The position numbers and the translations under genes were made by a program. 64,000 nt of DNA. Source: Alphaproteobacteria bacterium (GTDB taxonomy: Bacteria; Pseudomonadota; Alphaproteobacteria; SP197). Shown here piece by piece: positions 4,258-30,378 of this stretch. The notes beneath the pieces were generated by a model. The model was not told the origin of the DNA and searched no databases. It was given only the letters and a program-made list of their open reading frames with translations. The DNA lies in the NCBI GenBank assembly GCA_965207785.1, contig CBDBNO010000011.1:140664-204663 (forward strand). Direction: 5' to 3'. Each line of letters begins with the position of its first letter. Within the stretch, counting starts at the first letter, position 1.

Positions 4258-4372
4258 CACCTTCGGTGCTAAACAACTGATACAACGTAACGTTTTTCTC
4301 TCTCATGTGCAACTGCGGGACGTTTCCGCCACGGATTCTCCCGCCTCTGCAACTCATGACGAGAGGGAATCG

Positions 4373-5497: not shown

Positions 5498-6645
5498 ACC
5501 GCCGGACAAGACTGACCGATGCCGTGATCCGGCGTCTCAAGCCCGGTTCTCGGGAATACACGGTCCGCGATACCGTGGTGCCCTCGCTGGGAGTGCGCGT
5601 GCATCCCTCCGGCGGCCGCGCCTATGTCCACGTCGCCGCGGGGCGGAAGGCATCGCTGGGTTTCGTGGCGCTCCGCACGGTCGAGGAGGCCCGTCGGGAG
5701 AGCCGTGCGCTGCTGGCGGATGGCATGCCAAAGAGGACGGCGGCGGCGCTCTTCCGGGACTTCGTCGCCGGTCCGTGGCGCCAGTCCTGGGTCCACCGGT
5801 GCAAGCCGTCGACGATCAGGTGGCGCGACGGACATCTCGACAAACGCCTTCTGCCGGCATTCGGCCACCTGCGCCTCGACCGCATGTCGCCGGCCGCGGT
5901 GACGAGATGGTTCGACGATTACAGCAGGACCGCTCCGGCCAACGCCAACCACTGCCTCTCGACCCTGCGCCACATCTTCAATCATGCGCTCGCCTGCGGG
6001 CATGTCGCCGCGAACCCCGTCCGCGGCGTCAGGCCCAACCCGCGCCGGAAGATCACCCGCTTCCTCTCCCGGGAGGAACTCGAGCGGCTGCACCGCGTTC
6101 TCGATCGCCATGCCGGCGTCGCAGCCATCAGACCGTCGCACCGCGACCAGATCGACATCATCAGGCTTCTTCTCCTGACAGGCTGCCGCAGGAACGAGAT
6201 CGTCCGCCTTCGCCGGGACGAGGTGGCCGGAACCCGTCTCCGGTTGCGCGACAGCAAGACCGGCCCCAGAACGGTGTTCCTGAACGCCGAAGCCCGGTCC
6301 ATCCTCGAACCAAGGCTGAAGGGCAGCCGGGAGTATCTGTTCACGTCGCCAAAGGATGCCGGACGGCCGCTCAATGAGAGGCTCCCGGTCTGGTACGCCG
6401 TCCGCAAGGAGGCAGGGCTTGAAGACGTCCGCCTCCACGATCTCAGACACACATATGCCAGTCATGCGGTCATGCAGGGAACGCCGCTTCCCGTCGTGGC
6501 GAGGCTCCTTGGTCACAGCAGGACGGCCATGACGCTGCGCTACGCCCACACCGGAGATGCCGAGACCGCGGCCGCCGCCGAGCGGATCGGCCGCGTCATC
6601 GCCGGACTCTGCGGATGCGCCGGCGACTCCGGCGCACCCGCCTGA
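5494..6645 (+). CDS. second tyrosine recombinase/integrase, paralog of the upstream gene, translationally coupled
   Basis: ATG overlaps the int1 TGA (ATGA at 5494-5497). LLLLTGCRRNEIVRLRR, HDLRHTYASHAVM, LGHSRTAMTLRYAHT; same domain layout as int1. Confidence 0.85.
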   Translation: MNRRTRLTDAVIRRLKPGSREYTVRDTVVPSLGVRVHPSGGRAYVHVAAGRKASLGFVALRTVEEARRESRALLADGMPKRTAAALFRDFVAGPWRQSWVHRCKPSTIRWRDGHLDKRLLPAFGHLRLDRMSPAAVTRWFDDYSRTAPANANHCLSTLRHIFNHALACGHVAANPVRGVRPNPRRKITRFLSREELERLHRVLDRHAGVAAIRPSHRDQIDIIRLLLLTGCRRNEIVRLRRDEVAGTRLRLRDSKTGPRTVFLNAEARSILEPRLKGSREYLFTSPKDAGRPLNERLPVWYAVRKEAGLEDVRLHDLRHTYASHAVMQGTPLPVVARLLGHSRTAMTLRYAHTGDAETAAAAERIGRVIAGLCGCAGDSGAPA

Positions 6646-6664: not shown

Positions 6665-6712
6665 GGGCCGCGCGGGACCGTCCGCATCCATGACGCGGCG
6701 ATCACCGCCGCC

Positions 6713-9700
6713 TCACCAGCGGATGGCGAGATCGACCCCGATGCCGTGCTCCGCCCTGGCCGTGCCGCTCTCCCGGCGCGTCACCTTCACCCCAAACGAC
6801 AGGTCGGGCGCGCTCGCGCCCTCCGGCGTCAAGCGCCAGCCGAGGCTCCAGTCGCGCACGCCCGTGGCGAGCCCGAGGCCCGCATGCGGGCTGCCGGTCC
6901 AGCGCCCGCCGAAGGCCGGCAGGCCGTACGCCGCCTCCACCGCCCAGCGGGAGGTCGCCTCGCTGCCGGTGCGGTCCTCCAGCGTCTGCGGCTGGAACAG
7001 CGCGTCGAGACCGCCGGTGGCCCGGCCGCCGAAGTCATGGCGCAGGCTGAGCGACGCGCCCCGCTTCGTCGCCGGGGCCGGGTCGTATGCCAGCGCCGCC
7101 GCGAAGCCGCGGTCCTTCAGGTCGTCGTTGCCATGTGCGATGAGCGTACGGCCCGACAGGTCGAGCATGAGGCCCATGCCCGGATCGCTCCACCTGACGC
7201 CGCCGCCGGTCTCCACCCCGAAGCCGGTCTCCGCATCGCCGCCGTCATGGCGCGCGCCAAGCTCCAGCTTCGGCACGAGCGTGCCGCCGCCGTCGAGCGC
7301 GACATGGTAGCGGCCCTCAAGGCCGACCCGGAGCCGCGTCGCGTCGGAGTCCGACGCCGCGAGCCGGGCCGTCTTCTCCGAGGAGGTCCGCGTCCACAAG
7401 GCGTCCGAGGTCACCGCCAGCGCCGGGCCGGAGCCTTCCTGCGGGGCTTGGAGCAGGTCGCCCCGCAGCCCCGCCGCCGCCATGCTCCAGCTCGTGTCCG
7501 CGCTGTAGCGGCCGCCCAGTTCGGTCTTCAGCGTCACCTCGCCGGTGCCGTAGCCGGCCGCGCCCCAGAGCTTCAACCGCTCCGATGCCTGGAAGGCCGC
7601 ATAGGGGACCGCCGCCGTCAGCGACGCCTCCACCGTGCCGTCGCCCTCCCGCACCGCGCCCCGGCACAGCTCGGCCGCCTCGGCCGGGCAGTCCTGCGAG
7701 GCGGCGCGGGCCGCGATGTCCGTGTCGCGGTAGTCGCCCTCGCCGTCGCTCTGCGCCAGCGCAAGGCCGACCAGCCACCTGCCCCGGGCATAGTCCGCCC
7801 CCAGCATGCCGGTGGTGACCGTGCCGTCGAGCGAGAAGGTGCCCTCAGCACCATCGAAGCGCGCTTGCGCCGCCCGGCCCCAGAACGCCATGCTGCCGCC
7901 CGAGGAGTCCTTCTCGCCCGTCAGCGAGAAGCTGGAGCCCAGCAGCGCGTCGCGCGCCGTCATGGTGCGCGACTGCGCCGGGGTTTGACCGAAGCCGATC
8001 CCGCCTGTCCCGGAGACCGATCCGGGGCCGCCCGCGCTGCCGCCGAAGCCGCGCGCGATCTCCGCCATGGCCAGCGCCGCCTCGCCGTCGGGAGACCCCG
8101 CGGACCCGAGGTCCGGCCCGCCGCTGCCGGAAGGCGCCGGGTTGAGGTTGACCGCCTGTCCGGCGATCGCGCCCTGCATGCCGGGCGTGCGCGGCGCGGA
8201 CATCCGCCCCGCGATCCCGTCCAGCGCCTGCTCCGCCACCGTGCGACCGAACCGCGCCAGCCACGCCGCCGGCATCGGGTCGTCGTTGACGATGGTGCCC
8301 ACCGCAACCCCGTCGCCGATAACCGCACCCCGCGCCTTCGACAGCACCACCTCGAAGGTCTCCGCCCCCTCGTCATGGCTGTCGTCGTAGATCCGGATCC
8401 ACACCACCTTCTCCGTCTCCCCCGCCTGGAACGTCAGGTCGGAGCTGCCCGGCGCGTAGTCCCGGCCCGGCTCCGCCGACACCGGCGTCGACGGCCGCGT
8501 CGAGACATACACCCGCACCGGCGCGGGCGCCGGCGACGACAGACTCACCGTGAACGGCATCACCGGCAGGCGGCCGCCCTCCTTCGCCGTCGAGTCGCCC
8601 ACCGACAGCGCAGGCACCGTCGAAGGCACGTCGTCGTCCTTCACCTCGACCGACGCCGAGGCCGGATCGCCCACCGTGTAGCCCGCGCCGGCCTCGACCG
8701 TCACCACCGCCGCGCCGTCCGGCTCGTCGGCGTCGTCGTTCACCGTGGCGACGATGAACGACGCCTCCGTCGCGTCATTCGGGATCGTCACCGTGGCCGG
8801 ACCCTCGTCCGCCGCCGCCACGTGGTCGCCGTCCCCGGTCTCGGAGACCGCGAGCGTCACCGTCAGGTCGGCGTCCGGCGCGCGGTCGGCGGTGAGCGTG
8901 AACACCGCATCGCCGCCCTCGCTCACCGAGGCCGCCTTCGCCGCGATCGTCACCACGGGCGGCGGCAGGTCGTCGTCGCGCACCGCGACCGTGGCGTAAG
9001 CCGAAGCGCCGACCGTGTAGCCGCTGCCGTCCGTCACCGTCGCCGTGACCGAGCCGTCCGGCTCGTCCGCGGCGTCGTCGGTCGTCGCCAGGGTCAGCGT
9101 CGCGCTGCCGGTCGTGGGGATGGTGACCGTCTGCGTCCCGGCGGTCACGCCCCAGTCGCCGTCGGCCGCCACGCTCACGCTGACCGCCAGGTCCGCCGCC
9201 GGGGCGGGGGTCGCCGTCAGCGTGAACACCGCATCGCCGCCCTCCGTCACCGAGGCCGCCTTCGCCGCGACGGTCACCTCGGGCAGGGCCGCGTCGTCGT
9301 CACGCACCGCCACGGTGCCCGACGCCGGGTCGCCCGCCGTCCAGCCGCTGCCGTCCGCCACCGTCACGGTGACCGAGCCGTCGGGCTCGTCCGCGGCGTC
9401 GTCGGTCGTCGCCAGGGTCAGCGTCGCGCTGCCGGACGTGGGGATGGTGACGGTCCGGCTGCCGGCGGTCACGCCCCAGTCGCCGTCGGCCGCCACCGTC
9501 ACGCTGACCGCCAGGTCCGCCGCCGGGGCCGGGGTCGCCGTCAGGGTGAACACCGCGTCGCCGCCCTCGGTCACCGCGCTTCCCGCCGAGACCGCGATCT
9601 CCGGCGGGGTCAGGGGCGGCGTGTCGGGCGGCGTGTCGGGCGCCGCCGCCAGCTTCTCCAGCGCCTCGACGATCCGCGGCCACAGCGGGCTACTGTATTT

Positions 9701-12694
9701 CTGCGCATTCGCCTTCGCCTCCGCCAGCGTGGTCGGCGTCAGGCCGGGATACTCCTCCACGCCGAACGCCACCAGCACGCGCCGCCAGCGCTTCACATGC
9801 GCCGCGCCGTGCTGCGTCTGCGCCGCCATCGCGCGCACCTCCGCGACCAGCGCCGGGTCCACCGCCGCAACCGCCGGCGCCGCATCGTCGTCGTCCCGCA
9901 CGGAGACCGTGCCGGAGCCGGACGAGCCCACCGTGTAGCCGCTGCCGGCCGCCACCGTCACGGTGACAGAGCCGTCCGGCTCGTCCGTGGAATCGTCGCC
10001 GGTCGTCAGCGTCAGCGTGGCGCTGCCCGACGCCGGGATGGTCACCGTTTGCGTGCCGGCGGCGACGCCCCAGTCGCCGTCCGACGCCACCGTCACGCTG
10101 ACCGCAAGGTCCGCCGCCGGGGCCGGGCTCGCCGTCAGGGTGAACACCGCATCGCCGCCCTCCGTCACCGCGCTCCCCGCCGACACCGCGATCTCCGGCG
10201 TCTGCTGTTGCGGCTGGTCCTGCCCCTGCTCAAGCGACGACAGGTACACCGAGGCCGCCCAGAACGGGCTCGACGGCCACTTCGCCGCGTTCTCGTGGAT
10301 CTCGGAGGCCGGCATCGCCTCCTCCGGGCTCGCCGTATAGCCGATCGACGCCAGCACCCGGTTCCACTTCCTGATGTGCGCGGGATTGCCCTTCACCGCC
10401 TTGTTCGCCGGGTTGTCCCGCGCCGCGATCAGATGGTCCACCACCGTCTGGTAGTCGGTCCAGTCCGGCGCGCCCTGCCCGGGCTCGTGGTTGAGGATCC
10501 TGATCGCCGAGCGCACCGGCGTGAACGGCTGATAGCCGCCGCTCGCCTCCAGATGCACCGTGACCCACTCGCCGCTGTCCTCCGCCGAATCGTCGATAAT
10601 CGTCACCGGAATGACCGCCGTCGTCGCGCCCGGCGGCACCGTGACCGTCGACGGAACCGTGTAGTCGACGCCCCGCGTCGCATTGCCCGACAGCCTGTAG
10701 TTCAGGGTGAAGTCCGCACTCGGCGCCGGGTTGACCGCCACCACCAGGTTCACCGTCCCGGCCGTGCTCTCCCGCACCTGCCGCGAGTTGGTCACGAAGG
10801 ACACCTTGCGGGCGACCGAGTCGTCGTCGCGCACCGTCGCCTCCGCCGCCGCCCGGTGCGGGAAGGTGTGCCCGCCCACGGACAAGCCGTTCGTGTCGAT
10901 GGTGTAGCCGAAACGGCTCCCCGCCGGCACCACCGTCGTGACCGTCCCGTCCGCCGGCACCGTGCCGTCGGCCCGCGCCAGCGACGCCCGCACCGTGCAG
11001 TCCGGCTCCGCGGTGCCGTCGTTCACCGTCGGCACGGTCAGGACCGTGCTCCCGACCCGCGGCGCGAAGTAGACCTCGTGGCGCTTCGCGTTCCCCGGCG
11101 CCAGGCAGTTGCCGGTCTGCCCCACCTTCAGATGCACCGTGAACGGCCCCTGCGCCGGCGACGGGGCACTGACCTCGAAGTGGACGGGCTTCCCCTCCGC
11201 CACGCCGCCGTCGAGCGCCTGCGGGTGCCACTGCCTGACCGTGACCGTCGGGACGACGTTGCCCGCCGAGCCGTCCGGGCCGTCCTTGATCGTGATCCAG
11301 TACGGATCGTTGGTGACGACCCCGAAGGGCGGCGGGTTGCCTTCGCCCCAGCTGCCGACCGGGCCGGAGAACATCAGCATCCTGCGCACGTCGCTCTCGA
11401 CCAGGGTGGAAGGCGAGATCCGGAGAAGCGCAGTCTTGCTCTTCTCGCCGACGGCAAAGGTCAGGGGGGTGAGCCACTGGTGTGCATGGACGCCCGGCTG
11501 CACGTAGGCGTTCACGGCGATCTGCCGGGTCGCCGCCACGGGGATGAACCCCACCCCCTTCTCCAGCGCCGGGCGGACGAGCCGCGCATTGATGATGATG
11601 TCGCTGCCGGCGGGTGCCTCCGTAATCTCGCATTCGCGGCCGGTGCACGAGCCGCCGACAGGAACAATGCTGTCCACGATGACCAGCGGCGGGCCCGGCG
11701 AGGGCGTGTAGGGCAGCTCCTCCAGCAGCCTGATCTCGCCGTCGCCCGAGCGGCTCGACGAGGCCACCGTCACCCCCGTCGAGGTCACCGTGCCCAGGCT
11801 CACCGTCACCGTCTCGTCGTCGTCGGTGTTGTCCGGAGCGGCCTGCACCTCCAGCGTGGCCGCGGCGACCGACGGGCCGGTGAAGGTCACCGTGCTCCCG
11901 GACAGCGACACCCCCGTGAACGTGCTCGTCAGGAACAGGCTGAAGTCCGCGGGCCGCGAGGCGCCGGCGAAGTTCAGCGGAACCGTCACCGTCTCGCCGC
12001 TCACCAGCGCACGGCTCAGCGCCACGCGGATCTGCGCCACGTTGTTGGCGTCGTCCTCAACCGCAAGGTCGTCCGGGATCGACAGGGTGAGGGTGAAGGG
12101 TGGCTTGACCACGCCGCCGAGGCTGATTTTCAGGGGTACCGTGACGGTGGCCCATGCGCCTGTTGAATTCCATTGTCTACGCAAAGCGTTGTTACCGATG
12201 CTCCAGCCGGCCAGGGCTCCGCTGTCCTCGTTGTTCGAATCCGTGCTGCGTAGGTCCGACGAACCTCTATTGGAGCTCATATCGATCACAAGGAAGTACG
12301 TGGTACCGGCCGCAAGGTCGATGCCCGTGCTCGTGAAGGTCAGCGTCTGGTCCGAGTTGGAGTTGGTGAAGGCGGGGTTGGTCAGGGTCCCGAGAGAACT
12401 GCCCGGAGACCCGCTGGATTCGGAGTGGATGCTGGCGGTGAGCTGCGAAGAAGTAATATTGCTGATCGTGGAAAATTCCACTTCGACGCTGCGCAGGCTG
12501 TAACCTTCGCTGTTGCTGCCGGTCGTGAACGCCATGGCGTAATCGGTGCTCAAACCATATGCGGCTCCGTCTGCCTGACCGACGTTGCTGACAAAGGTCT
12601 GCGTCGTCTGCGCCTCGGCCCCGGTCGGCAGGGCGGCCAGCAGCGGCAGGGCGAGCAGCGCGGCGGCGAGGACCGGGCGCAGGCCGCGCCCCAA
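6713..12694 (-). CDS. giant type Va autotransporter adhesin (1,993 aa) with multiple Calx-beta domains and C-terminal beta-barrel translocator
   Basis: TTG start. Signal peptide MGRGLRPVLAAALLALPLLAALPTGAEA/QT. Repeated Calx-beta motifs (TEGGDAVFTLT...DDAADEPDGSVTV; GNATRGVDYTVP...IIDDSAEDSGEWVTVHL). C-terminal ~300 aa is a classic autotransporter beta-domain (MAFWGRAAQARFDG...LGADYARGRWLVGLALAQSDGEGDY...GIGVDLAIRW) ending in W. Confidence 0.85.
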   Translation of the reverse strand: MGRGLRPVLAAALLALPLLAALPTGAEAQTTQTFVSNVGQADGAAYGLSTDYAMAFTTGSNSEGYSLRSVEVEFSTISNITSSQLTASIHSESSGSPGSSLGTLTNPAFTNSNSDQTLTFTSTGIDLAAGTTYFLVIDMSSNRGSSDLRSTDSNNEDSGALAGWSIGNNALRRQWNSTGAWATVTVPLKISLGGVVKPPFTLTLSIPDDLAVEDDANNVAQIRVALSRALVSGETVTVPLNFAGASRPADFSLFLTSTFTGVSLSGSTVTFTGPSVAAATLEVQAAPDNTDDDETVTVSLGTVTSTGVTVASSSRSGDGEIRLLEELPYTPSPGPPLVIVDSIVPVGGSCTGRECEITEAPAGSDIIINARLVRPALEKGVGFIPVAATRQIAVNAYVQPGVHAHQWLTPLTFAVGEKSKTALLRISPSTLVESDVRRMLMFSGPVGSWGEGNPPPFGVVTNDPYWITIKDGPDGSAGNVVPTVTVRQWHPQALDGGVAEGKPVHFEVSAPSPAQGPFTVHLKVGQTGNCLAPGNAKRHEVYFAPRVGSTVLTVPTVNDGTAEPDCTVRASLARADGTVPADGTVTTVVPAGSRFGYTIDTNGLSVGGHTFPHRAAAEATVRDDDSVARKVSFVTNSRQVRESTAGTVNLVVAVNPAPSADFTLNYRLSGNATRGVDYTVPSTVTVPPGATTAVIPVTIIDDSAEDSGEWVTVHLEASGGYQPFTPVRSAIRILNHEPGQGAPDWTDYQTVVDHLIAARDNPANKAVKGNPAHIRKWNRVLASIGYTASPEEAMPASEIHENAAKWPSSPFWAASVYLSSLEQGQDQPQQQTPEIAVSAGSAVTEGGDAVFTLTASPAPAADLAVSVTVASDGDWGVAAGTQTVTIPASGSATLTLTTGDDSTDEPDGSVTVTVAAGSGYTVGSSGSGTVSVRDDDDAAPAVAAVDPALVAEVRAMAAQTQHGAAHVKRWRRVLVAFGVEEYPGLTPTTLAEAKANAQKYSSPLWPRIVEALEKLAAAPDTPPDTPPLTPPEIAVSAGSAVTEGGDAVFTLTATPAPAADLAVSVTVAADGDWGVTAGSRTVTIPTSGSATLTLATTDDAADEPDGSVTVTVADGSGWTAGDPASGTVAVRDDDAALPEVTVAAKAASVTEGGDAVFTLTATPAPAADLAVSVSVAADGDWGVTAGTQTVTIPTTGSATLTLATTDDAADEPDGSVTATVTDGSGYTVGASAYATVAVRDDDLPPPVVTIAAKAASVSEGGDAVFTLTADRAPDADLTVTLAVSETGDGDHVAAADEGPATVTIPNDATEASFIVATVNDDADEPDGAAVVTVEAGAGYTVGDPASASVEVKDDDVPSTVPALSVGDSTAKEGGRLPVMPFTVSLSSPAPAPVRVYVSTRPSTPVSAEPGRDYAPGSSDLTFQAGETEKVVWIRIYDDSHDEGAETFEVVLSKARGAVIGDGVAVGTIVNDDPMPAAWLARFGRTVAEQALDGIAGRMSAPRTPGMQGAIAGQAVNLNPAPSGSGGPDLGSAGSPDGEAALAMAEIARGFGGSAGGPGSVSGTGGIGFGQTPAQSRTMTARDALLGSSFSLTGEKDSSGGSMAFWGRAAQARFDGAEGTFSLDGTVTTGMLGADYARGRWLVGLALAQSDGEGDYRDTDIAARAASQDCPAEAAELCRGAVREGDGTVEASLTAAVPYAAFQASERLKLWGAAGYGTGEVTLKTELGGRYSADTSWSMAAAGLRGDLLQAPQEGSGPALAVTSDALWTRTSSEKTARLAASDSDATRLRVGLEGRYHVALDGGGTLVPKLELGARHDGGDAETGFGVETGGGVRWSDPGMGLMLDLSGRTLIAHGNDDLKDRGFAAALAYDPAPATKRGASLSLRHDFGGRATGGLDALFQPQTLEDRTGSEATSRWAVEAAYGLPAFGGRWTGSPHAGLGLATGVRDWSLGWRLTPEGASAPDLSFGVKVTRRESGTARAEHGIGVDLAIRW

Positions 12695-12861
12695 GCGGCG
12701 GGCGGCATGGCGGACGCCAGCAGCGGCGCGGGCGGCGGGAAGGTCGCGACTGTCGGGAGTGTCGTGATGCCCCCGGTTAGAGAGACCGGGGCAGGCAGAA
12801 GAAGAAGCGTCAGGCGGGGAGGCTAGCGGGCGAAAGCGGTCCCGTACGCAAGACGCAGGTT

Positions 12862-12979
12862 GGGCGACCCGGCGACCCGGCGACCCGGCGACCCGGCGAC
12901 CCGGCGACCCGGCGACCCGGCGACCCGGCGACCCGGCGACCCGGCGACCCGGCGACCCGGCGACCCGGCGACCCGGCGA
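12862..12979. repeat. perfect tandem repeat of the 8-bp unit GGCGACCC (about 14.7 copies), 168-285 bp upstream of the adhesin start codon
   Basis: Read directly: gggcgaccc ggcgaccc ... ggcgacc. It produces artefactual repeat peptides (PGDPATRR / GSPGRRVA) in two ORF-track entries. Confidence 0.9.
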
Positions 12980-13321
12980 CCATTATACCGCCGGCATCAT
13001 CCCGGTTTGTCAAGCCGTCGGGTGAGCGGATGTCGCTCGCCCCGCCGTCCGGAGCCCCCGCGAGCGCAACCTTCGCCGCGCGCAAAATGTCACCGATCCT
13101 GTCCAACATGGTCATCGCATTGGTCCCCAACTCTGTCGCCCGGCAGGCCCCGCAAGGCACACGCCCGCCGGTCAACGCCTGTTCCATCGGCAATTCGTAA
13201 GCGGATTCCGGCGGCAACGCAAACACGGATCGTCCAAGACCACCCTGATCGGCGAGCTGTCGTCGGGTTCGGCCACGTTGAGCGCACACCGGCGCCAGCA
13301 TCATCTGGCCATCGTGCCAGC

Positions 13322-13555
13322 CCTGCGAACGCCCGTTCGGAGACCCGGTACCTCTCGCGCAACTCGGCCGTCATCATGGCACGGTTGAAGAGCCACGCTG
13401 ACCTGCTCGACATGGTCTCGGGGGCGATGGTGCCGGTCATCAACGGTTGCTGCAATCTCTACCACCCCTGCCAGGCACTCGCGGACGTGCTGACTATCGC
13501 GGCGGACCGGCGCGGGGATCCCGGTGGCGCACGCCGCCTGACCTACGTCGGCGGG
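13322..13555 (+). pseudogene. ornithine/aspartate carbamoyltransferase internal fragment (~78 codons), gene relic
   Basis: ETRYLSRNSAVIMARLKSHADLLDMVSGAMVPVINGCCNLYHPCQALADVLTIAADRRGDPGGARRLTYVGG matches the OTC core (VPVING..HPCQALAD...YVGD). Sequence on both sides is unrelated. No start or C-terminal domain. Confidence 0.55.
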
Positions 13556-13694
13556 TTGCGGTTGAGCGCGCGATCGACCAGCAGCTTCGACATCGACACG
13601 CCCTCGCGCTCCGCCAGGGCGCGGATGCGCTCCCGTTCGAGACGGCTGCACGAGATCGAGTGCATGGTGGCTCTCTCCTCGACGCGCCGGCCCG

Positions 13695-14027
13695 TCATGG
13701 TCCCGGCCTCCCGGCGTCCTGCCGCGCCTGGAATTCCCGGGCCGCAAGGTAGAGGAACGACAGCGCCTCCATGGCGGTGACGTCGCTCCCCGGCAAGGGC
13801 TCCATCAATTCCTCGAGAAGAAGCAGGGTGCGGTTCACCCGATTGAGAAGGTCGCGCTGTTCGGATTCCGAGAGCACCAGGCGCATGTCGTCCTCGTCCT
13901 CCAGGGCGCAGGCGACCATGAAGCGCGAGATCGGCATCTTCGCCGCCTTGGCCCGCCGGCCGATCTCCGCCCAGTCGCTCGGGCGGCAGCTGACGCTGAA
14001 CAGCTGGTTGCGTCTCACGGTCGTGAC
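13695..14027 (-). CDS. small ribbon-helix-helix (CopG/MobC-N-terminal-like) DNA-binding protein, ~111 aa, GTG start
   Basis: VTTVRRNQLFSVSCRPSDWAEIGRRAKAAKMPISRFMVACAL... fits the RHH pattern (beta-strand, then A..G.S.S.y.r). Paralog of the next gene. Start inferred by alignment to the paralog. Confidence 0.45.
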   Translation of the reverse strand, partial: VTTVRRNQLFSVSCRPSDWAEIGRRAKAAKMPISRFMVACALEDEDDMRLVLSESEQRDLLNRVNRTLLLLEELMEPLPGSDVTAMEALSFLYLAAREFQARQDAGRPGP

Positions 14028-14347
14028 TCCTTCCCCTCGATCTCGACCTCGGCCTTCAGCAGGGACTCGATCTCCTCCTCGATCGCCTGCCAGGCCTCCG
14101 CTTCTCCGGCGCGCTCGAAGCGATGGCGCTCGATGCGGGCCAGCACCATGAGGTGATGCGCAAGGCGCCACTGCAGGTCGGCCGGAAGACCGGCCGGTTG
14201 GGGTGGTCTTGTGGTCAGCATCTGCTGCACAGCGTAGCGCGAGATGGGCATGTCGAGGGCCTTCGCGCGCTCGCCGATCCGGGCCCACTCGCTGTCTGAT
14301 GCCATGATGGTGCGCGCCTTGCGCCGCGGATCCTTCGCGTTCATCAT
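14015..14347 (-). CDS. small ribbon-helix-helix DNA-binding protein, ~111 aa, paralog of the downstream gene
   Basis: MMNAKDPRRKARTIMASDSEWARIGERAKALDMPISRYAVQQML...; shares the SDxEWAxIGxRAKAxxMPISRxxV core with the neighbour. Overlaps it by ~12 nt. Confidence 0.45.
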   Translation of the reverse strand: MMNAKDPRRKARTIMASDSEWARIGERAKALDMPISRYAVQQMLTTRPPQPAGLPADLQWRLAHHLMVLARIERHRFERAGEAEAWQAIEEEIESLLKAEVEIEGKESRP

Positions 14348-14690
14348 GGACTCGGTGGCCGGTGGTGGGAACGACGTAAGGGGGCCGTGATGGTGTGTTC
14401 TGGCGGATGTTCGCGTGATGTACTGGACAGAATCACCATGGTCTGCATTGGTATCCATTGTGTGTGATTGTCATGCATTGACGGTGTTCCGGAGCATATA
14501 GGCGATGGAAGAAAGTCTACGTATGACTTCCCCGAATGCAACTGTGGCTCTACGGATCGCTATGCATGTATAGATCTGATGTCGTCCGTGGTACTTGACA
14601 TGGCCGTATTCCGCGCGTAATTAGCGTGACTTGGAGAGAGAGATGCCTTTTGGTGTTTCGATTACATGTATACATGTCGTCAAATTTCTC

Positions 14691-14707
14691 TGTCACACCT
14701 GACGACG
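14691..14707. repeat. 17-bp direct repeat TGTCACACCTGACGACG, right junction (attR core)
   Basis: Exact match to 4241..4257. Preceded by a 230-bp AT-rich tract. Confidence 0.65.
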
Positions 14708-14760
14708 GCGGCTGATGTCGCCACCCTACCTCCCCGAACGATGGTATCGAATCTGCTCAC
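14708..14760 (-). pseudogene. displaced 5' end of the hydantoinase gene (start codon plus ~18 codons)
   Basis: Minus strand: AGGAGA ribosome-binding site, GTG at 14760..14758, then SRFDTIVRGGRVATSAAVVRCD running into the 17-bp repeat. Joined to 4240.., this gives MSRFDTIVRGGRVATSAAVVRCDIGIREGRIAALADSLEGADHVIDAEGRTVTPGGIDSHCH, a textbook hydantoinase N-terminus. An upstream in-frame TGA fixes the start. Confidence 0.65.
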
Positions 14761-14808
14761 GTGTCTCTCCTCTCATTCCTGGCGGCATGACGGACCGGCA
14801 GGCGAGCC

Positions 14809-15924
14809 TTAAGGCGGCGCCACGCCGAGCTGCCTGCCAATCTCCAGACCGTCCTCCCAGCAGTGGCGGTCGATCCGCACCTCGCCCTCTTCAAGCGCCT
14901 GCCTCCGGCGCGCGGCGCTGCCCTCGCCGGGATACCTGATTTCCGTCACGCCGGGAGCCTTCCTGGAGGACTTGAGCGCTCCGAGGCGCTGACCCACGGA
15001 GCGCTTGAAGTCCTCGATGCTGCCAAAGATCTCCGGGTCGATCGCGATGAACAGGTGACCCTTGAGGGGCCCCTCCTTTTCCACGTGGTCCACGCCCATG
15101 TCACAACCGACCAGGGCGCCCGAGAGGAAATCGATCAGCAGCAGCAGGCCGTAGCCCTTGTGTCCGCCCGGGTCGATCGCGCCGATATCGCGGGTGTAGT
15201 TGAGGCCGTCGCACACCAGGCCGGGGTCGCTCGCAGAACGCCCGTCGCTGTCGTGAGCCACCCCGTCGGGGAGCCTGCCCCGATAGCGCCGGGTATAGCG
15301 CACGTAGGTGGGAAGCGTCGCGCAGGGTGTGAAATCGGCCAGAAACGGCGTGCTTCCGGTCGGCACCGAGAACGCCATCGGGTTGCTTCCGATGACGGGT
15401 TCGACGCCGCCGACCGGGTGGACGACGGGCACGACATCGTCGCTGAACACCATGCCGACCACATCCCGGTTCGCCATGCGCTCCGCGTACAGGCCCGCAT
15501 GAAACAGGTCATGGCTGTTTCTCACCCCGACGACCGCGCACCCGGCGACTTTCGCCTTGGCGGCCGCGACCTCGGCCGCCAGAAGGCCGGCCAAGGGGCC
15601 CGGGCCCGAGTTTCCGTCGATGAGCGCGAAGCAGGCCTTTCCCCTGACGATTTGAGGTCTTGCGACCGGATCGGCCTCGCCCTTCCGGTAGTACTGCAGG
15701 TGGCTGTTGATCAGGTGATTGAAGCCCTGCACGCCCACGCCCCTCAGATCGGATTCGAGGTGCACGTCCGCCACCACGGCCGCAGCCTCCCGGTCGAACC
15801 CCACCGCTTCCAGGAGACGTTGCATGTAGATCCGCAGGACATCGATCCGAACCGCTCTCGTTTCGTGGCCAAGCATGATGTCTCTTCCCTCACGACCCCA
15901 ATGGCTGCCATGGACGGGGGGCAA
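14809..15924 (-). CDS. Ldh_2 family (malate/L-lactate/ureidoglycolate dehydrogenase type 2) oxidoreductase
   Basis: 371-aa ORF with family-typical glycine-rich motifs and length. The true start may be the internal Met at ~15876 (MLGHETRAV...). Confidence 0.65.
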   Translation of the reverse strand: MPPVHGSHWGREGRDIMLGHETRAVRIDVLRIYMQRLLEAVGFDREAAAVVADVHLESDLRGVGVQGFNHLINSHLQYYRKGEADPVARPQIVRGKACFALIDGNSGPGPLAGLLAAEVAAAKAKVAGCAVVGVRNSHDLFHAGLYAERMANRDVVGMVFSDDVVPVVHPVGGVEPVIGSNPMAFSVPTGSTPFLADFTPCATLPTYVRYTRRYRGRLPDGVAHDSDGRSASDPGLVCDGLNYTRDIGAIDPGGHKGYGLLLLIDFLSGALVGCDMGVDHVEKEGPLKGHLFIAIDPEIFGSIEDFKRSVGQRLGALKSSRKAPGVTEIRYPGEGSAARRRQALEEGEVRIDRHCWEDGLEIGRQLGVAPP

Positions 15925-16660
15925 TGCCGGTTTCGAAGACGCTGACCCGAAGCGGATAGACCGGAATCTCCACCTCTCTCCACCCTCGTGGCTCTACCGT
16001 TCCGTCCCCGTAAGGACAGATCGAGATCGCGACAACCTGCTCGATCTCGGCGTAGAACTCAATGTAATCGCCAACCTCGGCATCGCTGGTTCCGAATACG
16101 TAATCGCCGCTGCGAGGTTCGATGGCGACCTTGTAGAACAGGTTGAGATTGTCGTGGACCGCGTGCTGGCCGAAACCCATCATCGCCATTCCCGCGCGCA
16201 GGTTGTCGTAACAGGTTCTCGGGTGAACGCCGGCATACTGCACCCAGTGATGTGCGTTGCAGTGAGCAGCGTGGGAAATGTGGTCACGAGCATGATCGCC
16301 GTTGTCATGCCAGCGCACGGTGTCAGCCAGGCAGGTGCACAGGGGCCTCGAACGCGGGGGCGTTCCCCAAACCCGTGTGAACTTCTTGATACGGCCCCCC
16401 TCGAGGGCGATTTGAGCGGCCGGAAAATAGTGCTCGCTCGGGTCGTCCGGGTTCATCACGCAAACGTCCAGGGCATTCGTGCCTTCAACCACCGTGAGGC
16501 GCCACACTTGGCCTGCACTCACCCTGAAGCCGTAGCCGCTGCCGCGCGGCATCTCGTGCTCGAACACCGTTTGGAAGGACTCCCGGCGCGAGATCACGCC
16601 CTCGTAGAAGCCTGTGTCGAAGGAGTGTTTCTCCCGCACCATGGGTGCTGGTTCGGCCAT
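15890..16660 (-). CDS. conserved hypothetical protein, DUF1989-like (urea-carboxylase-associated family); tentative
   Basis: 256 aa, paralog of the next ORF. Shared motifs (..VxDxxAFNPxDPxE...FTRxWG...RPLxTxxxDTV). Confidence 0.4.
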   Translation of the reverse strand: MAEPAPMVREKHSFDTGFYEGVISRRESFQTVFEHEMPRGSGYGFRVSAGQVWRLTVVEGTNALDVCVMNPDDPSEHYFPAAQIALEGGRIKKFTRVWGTPPRSRPLCTCLADTVRWHDNGDHARDHISHAAHCNAHHWVQYAGVHPRTCYDNLRAGMAMMGFGQHAVHDNLNLFYKVAIEPRSGDYVFGTSDAEVGDYIEFYAEIEQVVAISICPYGDGTVEPRGWREVEIPVYPLRVSVFETGIAPRPWQPLGS

Positions 16661-16662
16661 GT

Positions 16663-17550
16663 TCAGCTCTCCCTTCCCGGAGTGGGCACCGGCTTGCTGG
16701 AGCGCCGGCCGTGGCCGTCCTCATAGAGAGAAAGATCGGGGTATGGCACTCCCGGATACGGCCAGCCCAGGGGGTCAGCGACCGGATAGCTCACCGCGAT
16801 CTTCACAGCGCGGGGACGTGGATGTCTGATTTCGGCGGGGGAACGCGAACCGTCGATGTATGGGCTGAGTGCCAGCAACACACTCAAGTCGATTTCGGCG
16901 AACAACGTCACCCGGTCGCCGCGCCTGGCATCGGAAGGGTGGATCCGGAACTCCTGGCTCGGCCCCTCGACTTCCATTCTCTGGAACAGGCTGATGTGCC
17001 CCTTGTCCAGCAAGGAGGGTTCGAGCGAGCGCGACTCGAGCGCGTCGGAAAACTGCTCCCATGTTGATTTCACGCCCTGCTGGCCGCCTTGAAGCCGCCA
17101 GTCTGACGGGGTTTCGAAACCGCCGAACAGAAAATGGTGCCTGCCCTCGCCGGTCCGCGCGGCGACCGTGTCCTCGACGAACGTCAGCAACGGGCGATAC
17201 CGGGCCATCGTTCCCCACAACCGGTTGAACCGCGTAAGATAGATCCCTTCGATCAGGCACATGTCCTGGGTCCAGATACGCTCGTCGGGATCGTGGGGAT
17301 TGAAGGCAAACAGGTTGACGATCTGCGCGCCTTCGGCGAGTTCGAGGGTCAGCAACTCGCCTGCAGCCAACGCGATGCACACGGCCCCTGTTCCGGCCAG
17401 CTCCTGGGTGGCGCGAAACTCCTCCGGCCTGAGATGATCGGCGAGTGACTGGTAGAACTTCCTCCGAAAAGGGCGCGGGTGCGCGGAGTTCGAAGGGTAG
17501 AGCTCGTAGTCCATCTGCTGCTTCTCCGGCCTCGAGGATCCCTGCGTCAA
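16663..17550 (-). CDS. conserved hypothetical protein, DUF1989-like paralog; tentative
   Basis: 295 aa. Same motif set as 15890..16660. The tandem pair resembles the 'urea carboxylase-associated protein 1/2' layout. Confidence 0.4.
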   Translation of the reverse strand: MTQGSSRPEKQQMDYELYPSNSAHPRPFRRKFYQSLADHLRPEEFRATQELAGTGAVCIALAAGELLTLELAEGAQIVNLFAFNPHDPDERIWTQDMCLIEGIYLTRFNRLWGTMARYRPLLTFVEDTVAARTGEGRHHFLFGGFETPSDWRLQGGQQGVKSTWEQFSDALESRSLEPSLLDKGHISLFQRMEVEGPSQEFRIHPSDARRGDRVTLFAEIDLSVLLALSPYIDGSRSPAEIRHPRPRAVKIAVSYPVADPLGWPYPGVPYPDLSLYEDGHGRRSSKPVPTPGRES

Positions 17551-17577
17551 GAACGCGTGCCGGTCCCATCCGGCGCG

Positions 17578-18374
17578 TCAATCGTCTGCATTGACCATAG
17601 CTTCATGGCGCATCATGCGCATGATCTTTCGGTCCAGTCGGCCATACTCCGGATCTGTCAGAATATCTTCCTTCTGGCGAAACTTCATCTCGCGCTTGAA
17701 CGCCACGGGGATGTCTTCGAGAACCTTGCCCGGGTGACGAGTCATGAAGATGATTCGATCCGCCAGGAAAATCGCCTCGTGAATATCATGGGTGACCAAC
17801 AGCACCGTGGTGTTCGATTTCTCGATGACTTCCAGGAGCAACTCCTGCATCCGCCAGCGGGTCTCGGCATCAAGCGCACCAAAGGGTTCATCCATAAGCA
17901 GAAGCGCGGGATCGTTCGCCAGGGTCCGGGCGATCGCGACCCGCTGTTTCATGCCCCCGGACAACGCTTTGGGAAAGACATGCCTGAATCGCGTCAGATC
18001 GACGAGATCGATGAAGTGGGCCGCGCGTTCGGCACGTTCGGCCTTGCCCATGCCCTGCAGCCTGAGGCCGTATTCGACGTTCTGCTGGACATTCAACCAC
18101 GGAAATGAGGTGTACGTCTGGAAGATCATTCCGCGGTCAGGACCCGGCCCGGTGATCTCCGTCCCATGCAGGTAAATCGCTCCCCGGGTGGGTTCCTCGA
18201 GGCCGGCGACGAGGCGCAGCATGGTCGACTTCCCGCAGCCGGACGGTCCCAGCAACACGCACGATTCGTTCTTGGCGACGCTGAAGGACATGTCCGACAA
18301 TGCGGTGATACTGGCGTCACCGTTCAACTGAAAGTCCTTCGTGACGCGGTCGACCACCAACATGACCTTGTCGC
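17578..18374 (-). CDS. ABC transporter ATP-binding protein, NitT/TauT (SsuB/TauB-like) family
   Basis: Walker A GPSGCGKST, signature LSGGMKQRVAIARTL, Walker B LLLMDEPFGALD. Start taken at MLVVDRVTKDF; the annotated ORF extends further upstream. Confidence 0.8.
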
Positions 18375-18407
18375 TTTGCGAGTCCAAGCGTGACTGCCCC
18401 CGTTCGT

Positions 18408-19241
18408 TCACTCTGATTCTTCCAGGTAGGAGAACATCAGGCGATGCACCAGCCGGAAAAGCAGGTCGAACATCAGCCCGAGCAGACCGATGACCAGGAT
18501 TCCGGCCATGATTTCGTCCACGTGGATAAAGCGTCTGGAACGCATCATCATCGCACCAATGCCCGTGGTCTGAGCGGTGATCTCCGCGATCACCAGGTAG
18601 GTCCAGCTGGCCGCCAGCATTTGACGCGCCGAAGTGACTATGTCGGGAGACACCGCCGGCAGGATCACCGTCATCAACACCTGTTTGCGCGTGGCACCAA
18701 GCGTCAGCGCCGTTTCGATGAGTTCGGCACGAACCGCCTTGGTGTGGTCCATGATCAGGGTAATGAGGAACCACACCGCTCCCAGAAACAGTATGCTGAT
18801 CTTGACCAGTTCGCCCGTTCCAAGCCACATCAGGAGCAGGGGTATCAACGCCGCCGCCGGTATGTAGCGCCAGGCGGACACCAGCGGATTGAAGAACCCC
18901 TCAACAGTTTTGAAGGAACCCATCAGGATGCCGAGGGGAGCCGAGACCGCGCATGCGGCGGCAAATCCCAGCACCACCCTCCACACGCTGGCCCAGATGT
19001 CGTAGAGAAAACCCTTGTCGATGACCAGTTCATAGAGGGCCGCTATGACCGCGGGAGGTGCGGGCAGGATGATGGCCGGCGCCCAACCACGCAGATTGGC
19101 GGTCTGCCACAGTCCGAAGAAGATCGCCCATATCGAAATCCCCAGCACGATGCTCCATGAGACAGGGATTTGCGTCTTGTACTCGAACCAACGTCTTCTC
19201 CGCCGACTCGGGCTCGGTATGCTCTCTTGATACTCGCTCAT
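18408..19241 (-). CDS. ABC transporter permease, NitT/TauT (SsuC/TauC-like) family
   Basis: 277 aa, six predicted transmembrane segments, permease signature region (TALTLGATRKQVLMTVILPAVSPDIVTSARQML). Confidence 0.8.
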   Translation of the reverse strand: MSEYQESIPSPSRRRRRWFEYKTQIPVSWSIVLGISIWAIFFGLWQTANLRGWAPAIILPAPPAVIAALYELVIDKGFLYDIWASVWRVVLGFAAACAVSAPLGILMGSFKTVEGFFNPLVSAWRYIPAAALIPLLLMWLGTGELVKISILFLGAVWFLITLIMDHTKAVRAELIETALTLGATRKQVLMTVILPAVSPDIVTSARQMLAASWTYLVIAEITAQTTGIGAMMMRSRRFIHVDEIMAGILVIGLLGLMFDLLFRLVHRLMFSYLEESE

Positions 19242-19340
19242 GTCTGCCGTCCTATCTCCCGCTTCCTGAGACGACGGACTCCCGACTCGCGCAGCGGGCG
19301 CTTGAAATCGATCGTCGCGCCGGCACAGGCGGACAAAGGC

Positions 19341-21140: not shown

Positions 21141-21162
21141 GCCACGAACTCCCGTTGCATTT

Positions 21163-23235: not shown

Positions 23236-23292
23236 CGTCTGCTCCCGCGATTGGGCTAGGCTCCCCCAACTCCCTCCTGCAGGCGTGGAGCA

Positions 23293-24375: not shown

Positions 24376-24394
24376 CGCCCTCTCCCGTTTGGTT

Positions 24395-24425
24395 TAGAAC
24401 CTGTTCTTGTGTCCGTAGAGTTCTA
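24395..24425. promoter_or_regulatory. candidate operator: TAGAAC-CT-GTTCTT ... AGAGTTCTA inverted repeats in the divergent promoter region
   Basis: GAACctGTTC is a perfect palindrome. A second GTTCTA half-site lies 19 bp away, in the 147-bp gap between the divergent transporter and aminotransferase operons. Relatively AT-rich. Confidence 0.25.
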
Positions 24426-24522
24426 TGCGTTGAAACGAAACTCCTTGCACAAAGTGACGCAGACGGAACGCCAATGCCAAAAAGGCGCTCTTGAGAAAGA
24501 TTAAGCCGTTATTATACTTTAC

Positions 24523-25923: not shown

Positions 25924-25955
25924 GAGTGGCCGGTGGGCCGCCCGGAGCATTCGAC

Positions 25956-27962: not shown

Positions 27963-27967
27963 ACTGC

Positions 27968-30373: not shown

Positions 30374-30378
30374 GCGAC

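What the first reader, a model, noticed from the sequence alone, without database searches (positions are those of the whole stretch)
12862..12979. Octanucleotide repeat tract (GGCGACCC x ~14.7) in the adhesin promoter region; candidate phase-variation switch
A perfect 118-bp array of an 8-bp unit lies 168-285 bp upstream of the adhesin start codon, inside the mobile element. Perfect short tandem repeats of this length are strongly prone to slipped-strand copy-number change. The closest precedent is the 7-bp repeat array upstream of the Haemophilus HMW1/HMW2 adhesin genes, where copy number tunes expression. If the same applies here, the element would carry its own stochastic ON/OFF or volume control for the adhesin.
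Basis: partly seen in the sequence, partly recalled or inferred. Interest (0 to 1): 0.75.

Follow-up and report, generated by a model that had tools for sequence, protein, structure and literature searches.

The report
Frame-shifting repeat switch before an adhesin gene
A perfect run of about 15 copies of an 8-base unit sits inside a short leader reading frame just ahead of a 2000-residue surface-protein gene. Gaining or losing copies should join or separate the two frames, and more than 100 related genes in uncultured marine Alphaproteobacteria carry the same cassette.

Summary
A perfect array of 14.9 copies of an 8-bp unit lies at window 12863..12981, and 168 nt separate it from the annotated TTG of a 1993-aa autotransporter-like protein.

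The tract is very likely a slipped-strand contingency switch. The same cassette precedes about 100 related genes with 2 to 30 units, and loci with nearly identical flanks differ in copy number.

It is not a plain promoter-region repeat. It lies inside a leader ORF that starts at an ATG with a Shine-Dalgarno-like (SD) ribosome-binding motif (13115) and encodes (GSPGRRVA)n.

After the tract, one frame stays open in every locus and runs into the adhesin signal peptide. The other two frames stop within 5-81 nt at conserved stops.

Because 8 is not a multiple of 3, copy number decides whether the leader and adhesin form one ORF. In this window, 14 units end the leader at TGA 12812..12810, so I infer the locus is OFF. 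With 15 or 12 units the sequence gives one ORF of 2136 or 2128 aa.

Consensus TTGACA and TATAAT hexamers, with an odd 20-nt spacing, lie inside the leader ORF just before the tract. This keeps an HMW-like reading, in which the tract is a transcribed 5'-UTR, alive as the main rival.

This is a known kind of switch in a new form and a new ecological group. No expression data exist.

The parts
12863..12981 (-). Octanucleotide tract. In gene sense it is a 7-nt partial unit GGTCGCC followed by (GGGTCGCC)x14, with no mismatch. In any reading frame it encodes the cyclic peptide GSPGRRVA.
   Evidence: TRF; sequence; translation.
12810..13115 (-). Leader ORF in its present state: 101 codons, MTMLDRIGDILRAAKVALAG...GLT..GIM(VAGSPGRR)n..SLPA*. 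It starts at ATG 13115, runs through both hexamers and the whole tract, and stops at TGA 12812..12810.
   Evidence: Gene callers annotated it in the source record (P0121). About 98 homologous leader ORFs were found.
13124..13128 (-). Shine-Dalgarno-like GGGGA, 8 nt before ATG 13115. It is GGAGG in most related loci.
13008..13013 (-). TTGACA hexamer, always read as Leu-Thr of the leader ORF. It is a possible -35 box.
12982..12987 (-). TATAAT hexamer, 20 nt after TTGACA, ending 7 nt before the first full repeat unit. It is read as xT ATA ATG and is a possible -10 box.
   Evidence: The consensus scan (16-18 nt spacers only) found no promoter here.
12810..12822 (-). Nearly invariant motif CCTCCCCGCCTGA. 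In the adhesin frame it reads (A)SPP(D/E). In leader frame A its TGA is the stop used in this window.
12823..12825 (-). TAG stop of the third frame (frame B), reached with 13 or 16 units. It is TAA in L129, so a stop is kept there.
12695..12862 (-). 168-nt linker between the tract and the annotated TTG. It has 56 codons with no stop in the adhesin frame and no ATG, GTG or TTG.
6713..12694 (-). Adhesin-like ORF as annotated from TTG (1993 aa). It has a signal peptide (12608..12694), a choice-of-anchor R domain, Calx-beta repeats and a C-terminal beta-barrel-like region ending in W.
6706..13233 (.). Conserved module (about 120 nt upstream region, leader ORF, tract and adhesin gene). It recurs at about 90% identity in other contigs with unrelated flanks.
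   Evidence: blastn; contexts.
4307..6645 (+). Two tandem tyrosine-integrase genes (4307..5497 and 5494..6645) immediately 3' of the adhesin gene.
   Evidence: Pfam.

Best explanation
The tract is a slipped-strand contingency repeat that works through the reading frame, not through promoter geometry.

Translation starts at the SD-preceded ATG at 13115. It passes the TTGACA and TATAAT hexamers and then the tract, which encodes (GSPGRRVA)n.

Each unit is 8 nt, so gaining or losing one unit moves the ribosome into another of three frames:
- One frame continues without a stop through a 56-codon linker into the signal peptide and the whole adhesin. This is ON. In this window it happens with 12, 15 or 18 units and gives one ORF of 2128-2136 aa.
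- The other two frames end 37 or 50 nt after the tract, at a TAG or at the TGA inside the conserved CCTCCCCGCCTGA motif. This is OFF. The 6-kb gene is then untranslated and presumably subject to polarity.

The window has 14 units and is in the TGA frame, so it is OFF. It is one unit gain or two unit losses from ON.

Shown: the anatomy, its conservation, the copy-number variation among related loci, and the existence of fused ORFs elsewhere.

Inferred: that slippage occurs at high rate within a population, that the leader ATG is used, that the fused protein is exported and is the functional form, and that OFF frames silence the gene.

Family nuance: most relatives also keep an in-frame ATG 4-30 nt after the tract (MS.AWLRR...). 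The frame-B stop overlaps it or lies just before it (ATGA). In those loci frame B may give coupled re-initiation, which would make three states. This window's subtype has lost that ATG.
For: 1. Leader ORF. In 20 of 20 alphaproteobacterial-type loci the frame TTG-ACA / ATA-ATG is open at least 142 nt upstream of the array. The other two frames are closed 3-118 nt upstream. Each locus has a GGAGG-like motif 6-10 nt before an in-frame ATG. Well-defined ATG-start genes in this window also use such motifs, and the annotated TTG has none.

2. Adhesin frame. It is open from the array to the signal peptide in every locus where the gene is present. The conserved motif is always read as SPPE in that frame, although the distance from motif to signal peptide varies widely. 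The other two frames stop at +5 to +81 nt.

3. No alternative start. The TTG at 12694 is CTG or CTT in close relatives with intact adhesin ORFs (L123, L126). Gene callers there had to start inside or after the signal peptide (P0003, P0004, P0008, P0010 and others).

4. Fused ORFs exist. P0031 (n=26) and P0036 (n=24) were checked at DNA level as L124 and L125. P0046 and P0237 were seen as proteins only. L112 is also fused, but its ORF stops about 320 nt after the array.

5. Simulation in the window. 12, 15 or 18 units give one ORF of 2128-2136 aa, 14 units give 101 aa, and 13 or 16 units give 94 or 102 aa.

6. Hypervariability. Copy number ranges over 2-30 units across about 120 loci. Loci with near-identical flanks have different n. 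Arrays stay perfect while flanks are 65-80% identical.

7. The single-stranded tract folds into a long bulged hairpin, -82 kcal/mol for 14 units. Such a structure could stabilise slipped intermediates; this link is inference.
Against: - The exact sigma-70 consensus hexamers TTGACA and TATAAT are conserved at nucleotide level, using rare codons TTG, ACA and ATA in a 67% G+C genome, right before the array. A transcript started there would lack the leader ATG.
- dN/dS of the leader N-terminus is about 0.5-1.4, so the peptide itself is not constrained.
- The fused frame is rare: 2 of 18 loci in the sample that was not selected on frame, where 6 are expected (P=0.03). Adhesin N-termini suggest about 3 of 43, although gene-caller start choice could hide some.
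- A fused protein would carry about 140 residues before its signal peptide, which is unusual for Sec export.
- Most relatives have their own ATG after the tract, so frame need not matter there.
- No read-level, transcript or protein data were available. The source contig is not in the gene-position index.
Confidence: 0.55

Rival explanations
1. HMW-like 5'-UTR rheostat. TTGACA-N20-TATAAT is the working promoter and transcription starts in the first repeat units, so the tract forms most of the 5'-UTR. Its length tunes mRNA structure, processing or translation, which makes it a graded volume control rather than a frame switch. The first reader's idea, updated, amounts to this.
For: - Both hexamers match the consensus exactly and are conserved across loci at nucleotide level, including synonymous positions.
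- TATAAT ends 2-7 nt before the first unit in most loci.
- Most relatives have an in-frame ATG 4-30 nt after the array, at which about 27 database proteins were called.
- The tract RNA forms a hairpin whose length scales with n.
- In H. influenzae hmw1A the SSR is transcribed and acts as an RNase III-processed hairpin (PMC12721329).
- H. influenzae biogroup aegyptius has an 8-bp unit in 12-15 copies upstream of hmwA (PMC3309571).
Against: - The spacer is 20 nt in most loci and 23 or 27 nt in others. This is outside the usual 16-18 nt, and the 3-nt steps look like a coding constraint. The consensus scan finds no promoter.
- This window's subtype has no ATG, GTG or TTG between the array and the unsupported TTG, so such a transcript could not make the adhesin.
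- The model does not explain the SD-ATG leader ORF, the closure of the other two frames upstream, the conserved stops downstream, or the always-open adhesin frame.
- The leader RNA is less stable than shuffled controls (z = +2.6).
Confidence: 0.25
2. The tract is mainly a recombination junction or neutral hypervariable spacer. Arrays shared by dozens of paralogous modules let upstream and downstream halves be exchanged, and copy number has no regulatory meaning.
For: - Identity drops sharply across the array: L093/L104 are 100% identical upstream and 61% downstream.
- L127/L128/L129 are 96-99.6% identical upstream and 65-88% downstream.
- WIN, L122 and L123 are mosaic in the leader.
- All three frames occur in assemblies.
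Against: - It does not explain why the unit sequence, the leader ORF, the frame-specific stops and the open adhesin frame are conserved in over 100 loci.
- It does not explain why one stop is kept by a TAG-to-TAA change.
- Recombination and frame switching are compatible, so this is more an added role than an alternative.
Confidence: 0.1
3. Three-state switch by translational coupling. The leader ORF is a regulatory upstream ORF. In frame B it ends at a TGA that overlaps the adhesin's own ATG or lies just before it, and ribosomes re-initiate (ON). In frame A they run over that ATG and stop 45-50 nt later (OFF). The fused frame is a rare third state.
For: - ATGA, or TGA followed by 2-5 nt and then ATG/GTG, is present in every ATG-type locus examined.
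- Frame A is the commonest state and the fused frame the rarest.
- The leader peptide is unconstrained, which fits a role for the act of translation alone.
- The internal ATG lacks an SD.
Against: - It cannot apply to this window, which lacks that ATG segment.
- The hairpin proposed to hide the ATG can pair in 87% of cells but shows no covariation.
- The A:B count from the protein search is biased by a query that carried an A-frame tail.
Confidence: 0.1

Closest known systems
Neisseria Opa proteins: CTCTT pentamer repeats in the signal-peptide-coding region (from general knowledge, not re-read here)
   Same: - A perfect SSR whose unit is not a multiple of 3 lies in the 5' translated part of a surface-adhesin gene, upstream of the mature protein.
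- Copy number sets the frame.
- The family has many members per genome, and most are out of frame at any time.
   Different: - The unit here is 8 nt and G+C-rich.
- The tract lies in a long leader about 140 codons before the signal peptide, not within it.
- Promoter-like hexamers sit inside the ORF.
- The genes are about 2000-aa autotransporter-like proteins on integrase- or ICE-associated modules in uncultured marine Alphaproteobacteria.
- No expression data exist.
Haemophilus influenzae HMW1A/HMW2A: 7-bp ATCTTTC repeats (8-bp GCATCATC in biogroup aegyptius) upstream of hmwA (PMC12721329, PMC3309571)
   Same: - A long perfect SSR of 7-8 bp in 12-15 or more copies lies between a promoter-like element and a large adhesin gene.
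- Copy number differs between strains and between duplicated loci.
- The repeat RNA can form a hairpin.
   Different: - In HMW the repeats are untranslated 5'-UTR and expression falls gradually with copy number through an RNase III-processed hairpin.
- Here the tract lies within an SD-led ORF, with frame-specific stops and an adhesin frame that is always open.
- The promoter-like hexamers here have a 20-nt spacer.
Moraxella catarrhalis UspA2: AGAT repeats in the 5'-UTR of an autotransporter adhesin gene (from memory, not checked)
   Same: The repeat lies between the promoter and the start codon of an autotransporter adhesin gene, and copy number affects its level.
   Different: That repeat is a tetranucleotide in an untranslated region with no frame logic.
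Neisseria gonorrhoeae pilE G4 element with adjacent sRNA promoter (from memory, not checked)
   Same: A promoter directly abuts a G-run sequence upstream of a variable surface-protein gene. (GGGN5)n fits the formal G-quadruplex motif.
   Different: ViennaRNA prefers a hairpin to a G-quadruplex for this tract. The pilE element drives gene conversion rather than slippage. There is no evidence here.

Membership tests
SSR contingency locus (slipped-strand phase variation) | Long perfect tandem repeat of a 1-9 nt unit | tested here: met
   14.9 perfect copies of an 8-nt unit.
SSR contingency locus (slipped-strand phase variation) | Repeat placed where copy number alters expression: inside an ORF with a unit that is not a multiple of 3, or in a promoter or 5'-UTR | tested here: met
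   The tract lies inside the SD-led leader ORF. With 12, 15 or 18 units it fuses to the adhesin ORF; other counts stop within 50 nt. It also lies just after promoter-like hexamers.
SSR contingency locus (slipped-strand phase variation) | Copy number differs among otherwise near-identical alleles | tested here: met
   5 vs 4, 17 vs 7, 12 vs 3 and 5 vs 14 units with 94-100% identical flanks. Identical 48-aa leader N-termini carry repeat stretches of 24, 14 or 38 aa. These are paralogues or different samples, not proven alleles of one locus.
SSR contingency locus (slipped-strand phase variation) | Length heterogeneity within one population, and a matching change in expression | not testable with these tools
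   No reads, transcripts or proteins were available. The source contig is not in the gene index and metagenome scans found nothing.
HMW-type 5'-UTR repeat rheostat | Repeat lies downstream of the transcription start and upstream of the start codon, untranslated | tested here: inconclusive
   Consensus hexamers precede the array, but with a 20/23/27-nt spacer and no hit in the promoter scan. The tract is inside an ORF. The TSS is unknown.
HMW-type 5'-UTR repeat rheostat | A usable start codon for the adhesin downstream of the repeat | tested here: not met
   In this window no ATG, GTG or TTG occurs between the array and TTG 12694, which lacks an SD and is CTG or CTT in close relatives. The feature is met in most other family members, which start MS.AWLRR.
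Opa-type translational frame switch | Initiation codon upstream of the repeat, in a frame that can be continuous with the mature protein | tested here: met
   ATG 13115 with an SD-like motif; a continuous ORF at n = 12, 15 or 18. Fused ORFs exist in relatives.
Opa-type translational frame switch | Out-of-frame states terminate early | tested here: met
   Stops at +37 (TAG) and +50 (TGA) in the window and at +5 to +81 in relatives; L116 has lost its frame-A stop.
Type V (autotransporter) secreted protein | N-terminal Sec signal peptide, passenger domain, C-terminal outer-membrane beta-barrel | tested here: inconclusive
   The signal peptide was read from the sequence. Passenger domains are choice-of-anchor R and Calx-beta. 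The barrel has only a weak PF13505 match (8e-4, below cut-off). A related protein (P0240) is named an autotransporter beta-barrel protein by NCBI. No structure was predicted.
Sigma-70 promoter | -35 and -10 hexamers separated by 16-18 bp | tested here: not met
   The hexamers are perfect, but the spacer is 20 nt here and 19, 20, 23 or 27 nt in relatives.

The most novel reading that the evidence does not exclude
The cassette may be a dedicated variation engine for a large family of mobile adhesin genes in host-associated marine Alphaproteobacteria. An SSR embedded in a leader ORF would give three translational states: off, coupled and fused. An internal consensus-like promoter would fire straight into the hairpin-forming, G-run repeat and make slippage depend on transcription. 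The shared arrays would also act as recombination points that reshuffle 5' modules among dozens of paralogues. That would be an Opa/pilE-like surface-variation system outside pathogens.
Probability: 0.2. Interest if true: 0.8.

Novelty: new variant of a known kind. Interest (0 to 1): 0.6.

Why it matters
SSR contingency loci are textbook features of host-adapted pathogens such as Neisseria, Haemophilus and Helicobacter. Here the same logic appears as a conserved cassette in front of more than 100 large surface-protein genes, often several per genome.

The bearers are uncultured, mostly alphaproteobacterial genomes, and the modules sit next to integrases, relaxases and IS elements. Some relatives carry NCBI names of Rhodospirillaceae MAGs. 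I recall these as sponge-microbiome genomes, but that was not verified here.

If the switch works, these bacteria vary their surface stochastically, and the switch moves horizontally together with the adhesin gene.

There is also a practical point for annotation. Gene callers split these genes into a small 'hypothetical protein' and an adhesin with a doubtful or missing start. The real gene model may therefore depend on repeat number.

The odd combination of a translated leader, perfect promoter hexamers at the wrong spacing, and frame-specific conserved stops gives a concrete, testable design.

Tried and rejected
- **Source contig look-ups.** Exact-protein look-ups of the adhesin (with L or M as first residue, and as P0001) and of the neighbouring integrase found no indexed contig. 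Same-locus comparison across samples was therefore impossible.
- **Metagenome scans.** A window-specific leader 22-mer gave no hits. The conserved 19-mer gave 3 unrelated hits.
- **Viral contig scan.** Three unrelated 3-unit hits.
- **Rfam.** No family at gathering threshold in the window. Only a chance-level hit (E=2.7) near the tract at relaxed threshold.
- **Structured RNA leader.** The 306-nt leader is less stable than shuffles (z=+2.56). RNAalifold on 10 loci found no covarying structure. My proposed hairpin hiding the internal ATG pairs in 87% of cells but has zero compensatory changes, so it is unsupported.
- **G-quadruplex.** The tract fits G3N5 formally, but ViennaRNA with G-quadruplexes enabled still prefers the hairpin.
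- **Programmed +1 frameshift at the conserved UGA.** Rejected by reading the sequence. The upstream sequence is C-rich (anti-SD-like, not SD-like) and the P-site codon cannot re-pair.
- **Leader peptide as a conserved small protein.** There are no Pfam or NCBIfam hits and dN/dS is about 1, so it is probably not a folded functional domain. No structure prediction was run.
- **ORF on the plus strand through the tract (12860..13780).** Rejected. Only a C-terminal OTCase fragment matches, and flanks on that side are not conserved among loci.
- **Frame counts from the leader-peptide search.** The search returned only short proteins and missed known fusions such as P0031. Its A:B:C counts are therefore biased and are not used for the fused fraction.

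Full report
**1. The observation**

Tandem Repeats Finder reports one outstanding array in the window: 12863..12981, period 8, 14.9 copies, 100% identity, unit GGCGACCC. The sequence confirms it. No other short-unit array in the 64 kb exceeds 4.2 copies.

The neighbouring large ORF is 6713..12694 on the minus strand (1993 aa). Its first possible start is TTG at 12694, so 168 nt separate it from the array. The product has these features:
- a typical signal peptide, read from the sequence;
- a choice-of-anchor R domain (NF041539, 1e-29);
- Calx-beta repeats (PF03160);
- a weak C-terminal OMP beta-barrel match;
- an aromatic last residue.

A related protein in the database, P0240, is named an autotransporter beta-barrel protein by NCBI. 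'Adhesin' is therefore a reasonable label, but it is not a tested one.

Two tyrosine-integrase genes lie directly 3' of the gene. The rest of the window encodes ordinary metabolism.

**2. Relatives**

Most are unrelated arrays in actinobacteria, for example 44 units in a Nocardia (L007).

Eighteen loci share the whole neighbourhood of the window's array. They come mainly from Alphaproteobacteria MAGs, plus one Pseudomonadales and one Paracoccaceae chromosome and a few bins of other phyla. Copy numbers there are 3, 3, 4, 4, 5, 7, 7, 8, 8, 10, 10, 12, 12, 16, 17, 18, 19 and 24. Several genomes hold two or more loci.

The arrays are perfect, while the flanks are only 65-80% identical.

A protein search with the adhesin found orthologues at 88-91% identity. 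Their contigs carry 14, 18, 26, 24 and 9 units. The block 6706..13233 of the window aligns to them at about 90% identity, but the flanks differ. In those contigs the flanks hold TrwC relaxase, coupling-protein, IS and toxin-antitoxin genes.

**3. Anatomy in gene sense**

Directly 5' of the array every locus has TTGACA, then a spacer, then TATAAT or TACAAT. The spacer is 20 nt in most loci and 19, 23 or 27 nt in some. In the window these hexamers are at 13013..13008 and 12987..12982.

Upstream of them every locus has a GGAGG-like motif 6-10 nt before an ATG. In the window the motif is GGGGA at 13128..13124 and the ATG is at 13115.

From that ATG one frame runs through both hexamers, always read as Leu-Thr and Ile-Met/Ile, and into the array. 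A test that does not depend on choosing the ATG shows the same thing:
- In 20 of 20 alphaproteobacterial-type loci this frame is open for at least 142 nt upstream of the array.
- The other two frames are closed 3-118 nt upstream.

Gene callers annotated this ORF in the source record (P0121). A search with its product found about 98 homologous small proteins. They share an N-terminus of about 47 aa, then (VAGSPGRR)n covering 2 to 30 units, then one of two kinds of tail.

dN/dS of the N-terminus is near 1. What is conserved is the ORF, not its peptide.

**4. Downstream of the array**

The three frames behave very differently, and they do so in every locus.

- **Adhesin frame (C).** It has no stop between the array and the signal peptide. 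The nearly invariant motif CCTCCCCGCCTGA(G) is always read there as SPP(E/D), although the distance from motif to signal peptide varies widely.
- **Frame A.** It stops at the TGA inside that motif.
- **Frame B.** It stops earlier.

In most loci the frame-B stop is a TGA that overlaps a conserved in-frame ATG or lies 2-5 nt before it (MS.AWLRR..RPSSPPES..). About 27 database adhesins were called from that ATG.

The window's subtype lacks that ATG segment. Its only candidate start is the TTG at 12694. That codon has no SD. It is the Leu of a conserved RRLxRGLRPVL motif and is CTG or CTT in close relatives whose 2000-aa ORFs are intact. Gene callers there had to start inside or after the signal peptide.

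**5. Consequence**

Because 8 is not a multiple of 3, copy number selects the frame. Editing the window sequence in silico gives the following:

| Units | ORF from ATG 13115 |
|---|---|
| 12, 15, 18 | one ORF of 2128-2136 aa, through the leader, repeat, linker, signal peptide and adhesin |
| 14 (observed) | 101 aa, ending at TGA 12812..12810 |
| 13, 16 | 94 or 102 aa, ending at TAG 12825..12823 |

Fused ORFs exist in nature. L124 (26 units) and L125 (24 units) were verified at DNA level. P0046 and P0237 were seen as proteins. L112 is also fused, but its ORF stops about 320 nt after the array.

In the sample that was not selected on frame (18 loci from the genome scan) the states are A 11, B 5 and fused 2. 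The fused state is thus rarer than one third (P=0.03).

**6. Hypervariability**

Loci with 94-100% identical flanks carry different numbers: 5/4, 17/7, 12/3 and 5/14 units. Leader proteins with identical 48-aa N-termini carry repeat stretches of 24, 14 or 38 aa. These are paralogues or different samples, so they show fast change but not within-population switching.

Identity often drops sharply across the array: 100% upstream vs 61% downstream, and 99.6% vs 88%. The arrays therefore also look like recombination junctions.

The single-stranded tract folds into a long bulged hairpin. Such a structure could stabilise slipped intermediates; this is inference.

**7. Interpretation**

The best reading is a translational reading-frame contingency switch of the Opa type, placed in a long leader. 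The window's allele is out of frame, one unit gain from ON.

The main difficulty is the pair of perfect promoter hexamers inside the ORF. They are conserved at nucleotide level with rare codons, so they are probably a DNA signal. However, their spacing (20/23/27 nt) is wrong for sigma-70, and its 3-nt steps look like a coding constraint.

If the hexamers do act as a promoter, the tract is also a transcribed 5'-UTR, as in HMW (PMC12721329). In relatives with the internal ATG it could then tune expression level.

I could not decide between these readings without a transcription start. I also could not show that the fused protein, with about 140 residues before its signal peptide, is exported.

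RNA-structure ideas were tested and found no support. Rfam has nothing here.

**8. Novelty**

Phase variation of adhesins by SSRs is well known, and 8-nt units have been described upstream of hmwA in H. influenzae biogroup aegyptius (PMC3309571).

New here:
- the conserved cassette design: leader ORF, embedded hexamers, three defined frames;
- its scale: more than 100 loci, several per genome;
- its mobility;
- its occurrence in uncultured marine, probably host-associated Alphaproteobacteria.

Full-text searches found no report of such loci in that group.

I rate it a new variant of a known kind, of moderate to good interest, resting entirely on comparative sequence evidence.

Noticed in passing
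window 12982..13013 (minus strand) and all related loci: Exact TTGACA and TATAAT hexamers lie inside the leader ORF, using rare codons (TTG, ACA, ATA). Spacers are 20 nt in most loci and 19, 23 or 27 nt in others. They are too well conserved to be chance and too far apart for a standard sigma-70 promoter. Many spacers also hold a TGA at a fixed position that closes one of the other frames.
   Followed up: partly
L093/L104, L127/L128/L129, L122/L123 around their arrays: Sequence identity changes abruptly across the array, for example 100% upstream vs 61% downstream. It looks as if paralogous modules recombine within the repeat.
   Followed up: partly
L129, 37-39 nt after its array: The frame-B stop is TAA instead of the TAG seen in the window. 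This is a non-synonymous change in the adhesin frame (Ala to Thr) that still keeps a stop in frame B.
   Followed up: no
window 13340..13500 (+) and 13695..14288 (-): A fragment matches only the C-terminal end of the carbamoyl-phosphate-binding domain of ornithine/aspartate carbamoyltransferase. A weak NikA-like mobilisation-protein ORF lies nearby. Both sit just beyond the 5' edge of the adhesin module and are probably debris at an insertion site.
   Followed up: no
window 4307..5497 and 5494..6645 (+): Two tyrosine-integrase genes in tandem overlap by 4 nt, immediately 3' of the adhesin gene. No tRNA gene lies nearby.
   Followed up: no
window 8859..9576: A 324-bp tandem repeat (2.2 copies, 87% identity) lies inside the adhesin gene and corresponds to repeated Calx-beta-type modules.
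   Followed up: no
window 27950..27966: (TGAAC)x3.4, perfect, ends one base before the ATG of the hydantoinase-B gene at 27968. It could be a second, much shorter SSR in a translation-initiation region.
   Followed up: no
window 46040..46132: ARAGORN calls a 93-nt tRNA-Ala(GGC) that lies inside an ORF with a full-length MTTB (trimethylamine methyltransferase family) match (45833..47929). It is probably a false positive.
   Followed up: no
window 14000..31000: G+C content is 58-62%, against 65-69% elsewhere. The region holds hydantoinase, ABC-transporter and aminotransferase genes and may be a separate acquired metabolic island.
   Followed up: no
L007 (Nocardia sp. NBC_01499), L063, L036, L074 and many Streptomyces loci: The same octamer GGCGACCC forms perfect arrays in unrelated high-G+C actinobacterial genomes, up to 44 units in L007, without the promoter-like box or the leader motif. 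The unit seems prone to expansion in its own right.
   Followed up: partly
L116 (Pseudomonadales chromosome), L061 (Paracoccaceae chromosome), L019/L086 (Prochlorococcaceae bin), L056 (Acidobacteria bin): The cassette occurs outside the main alphaproteobacterial group. This suggests horizontal transfer, or mis-binning in the case of the bins. L061 has a short version in which the frame is continuous with the adhesin.
   Followed up: no
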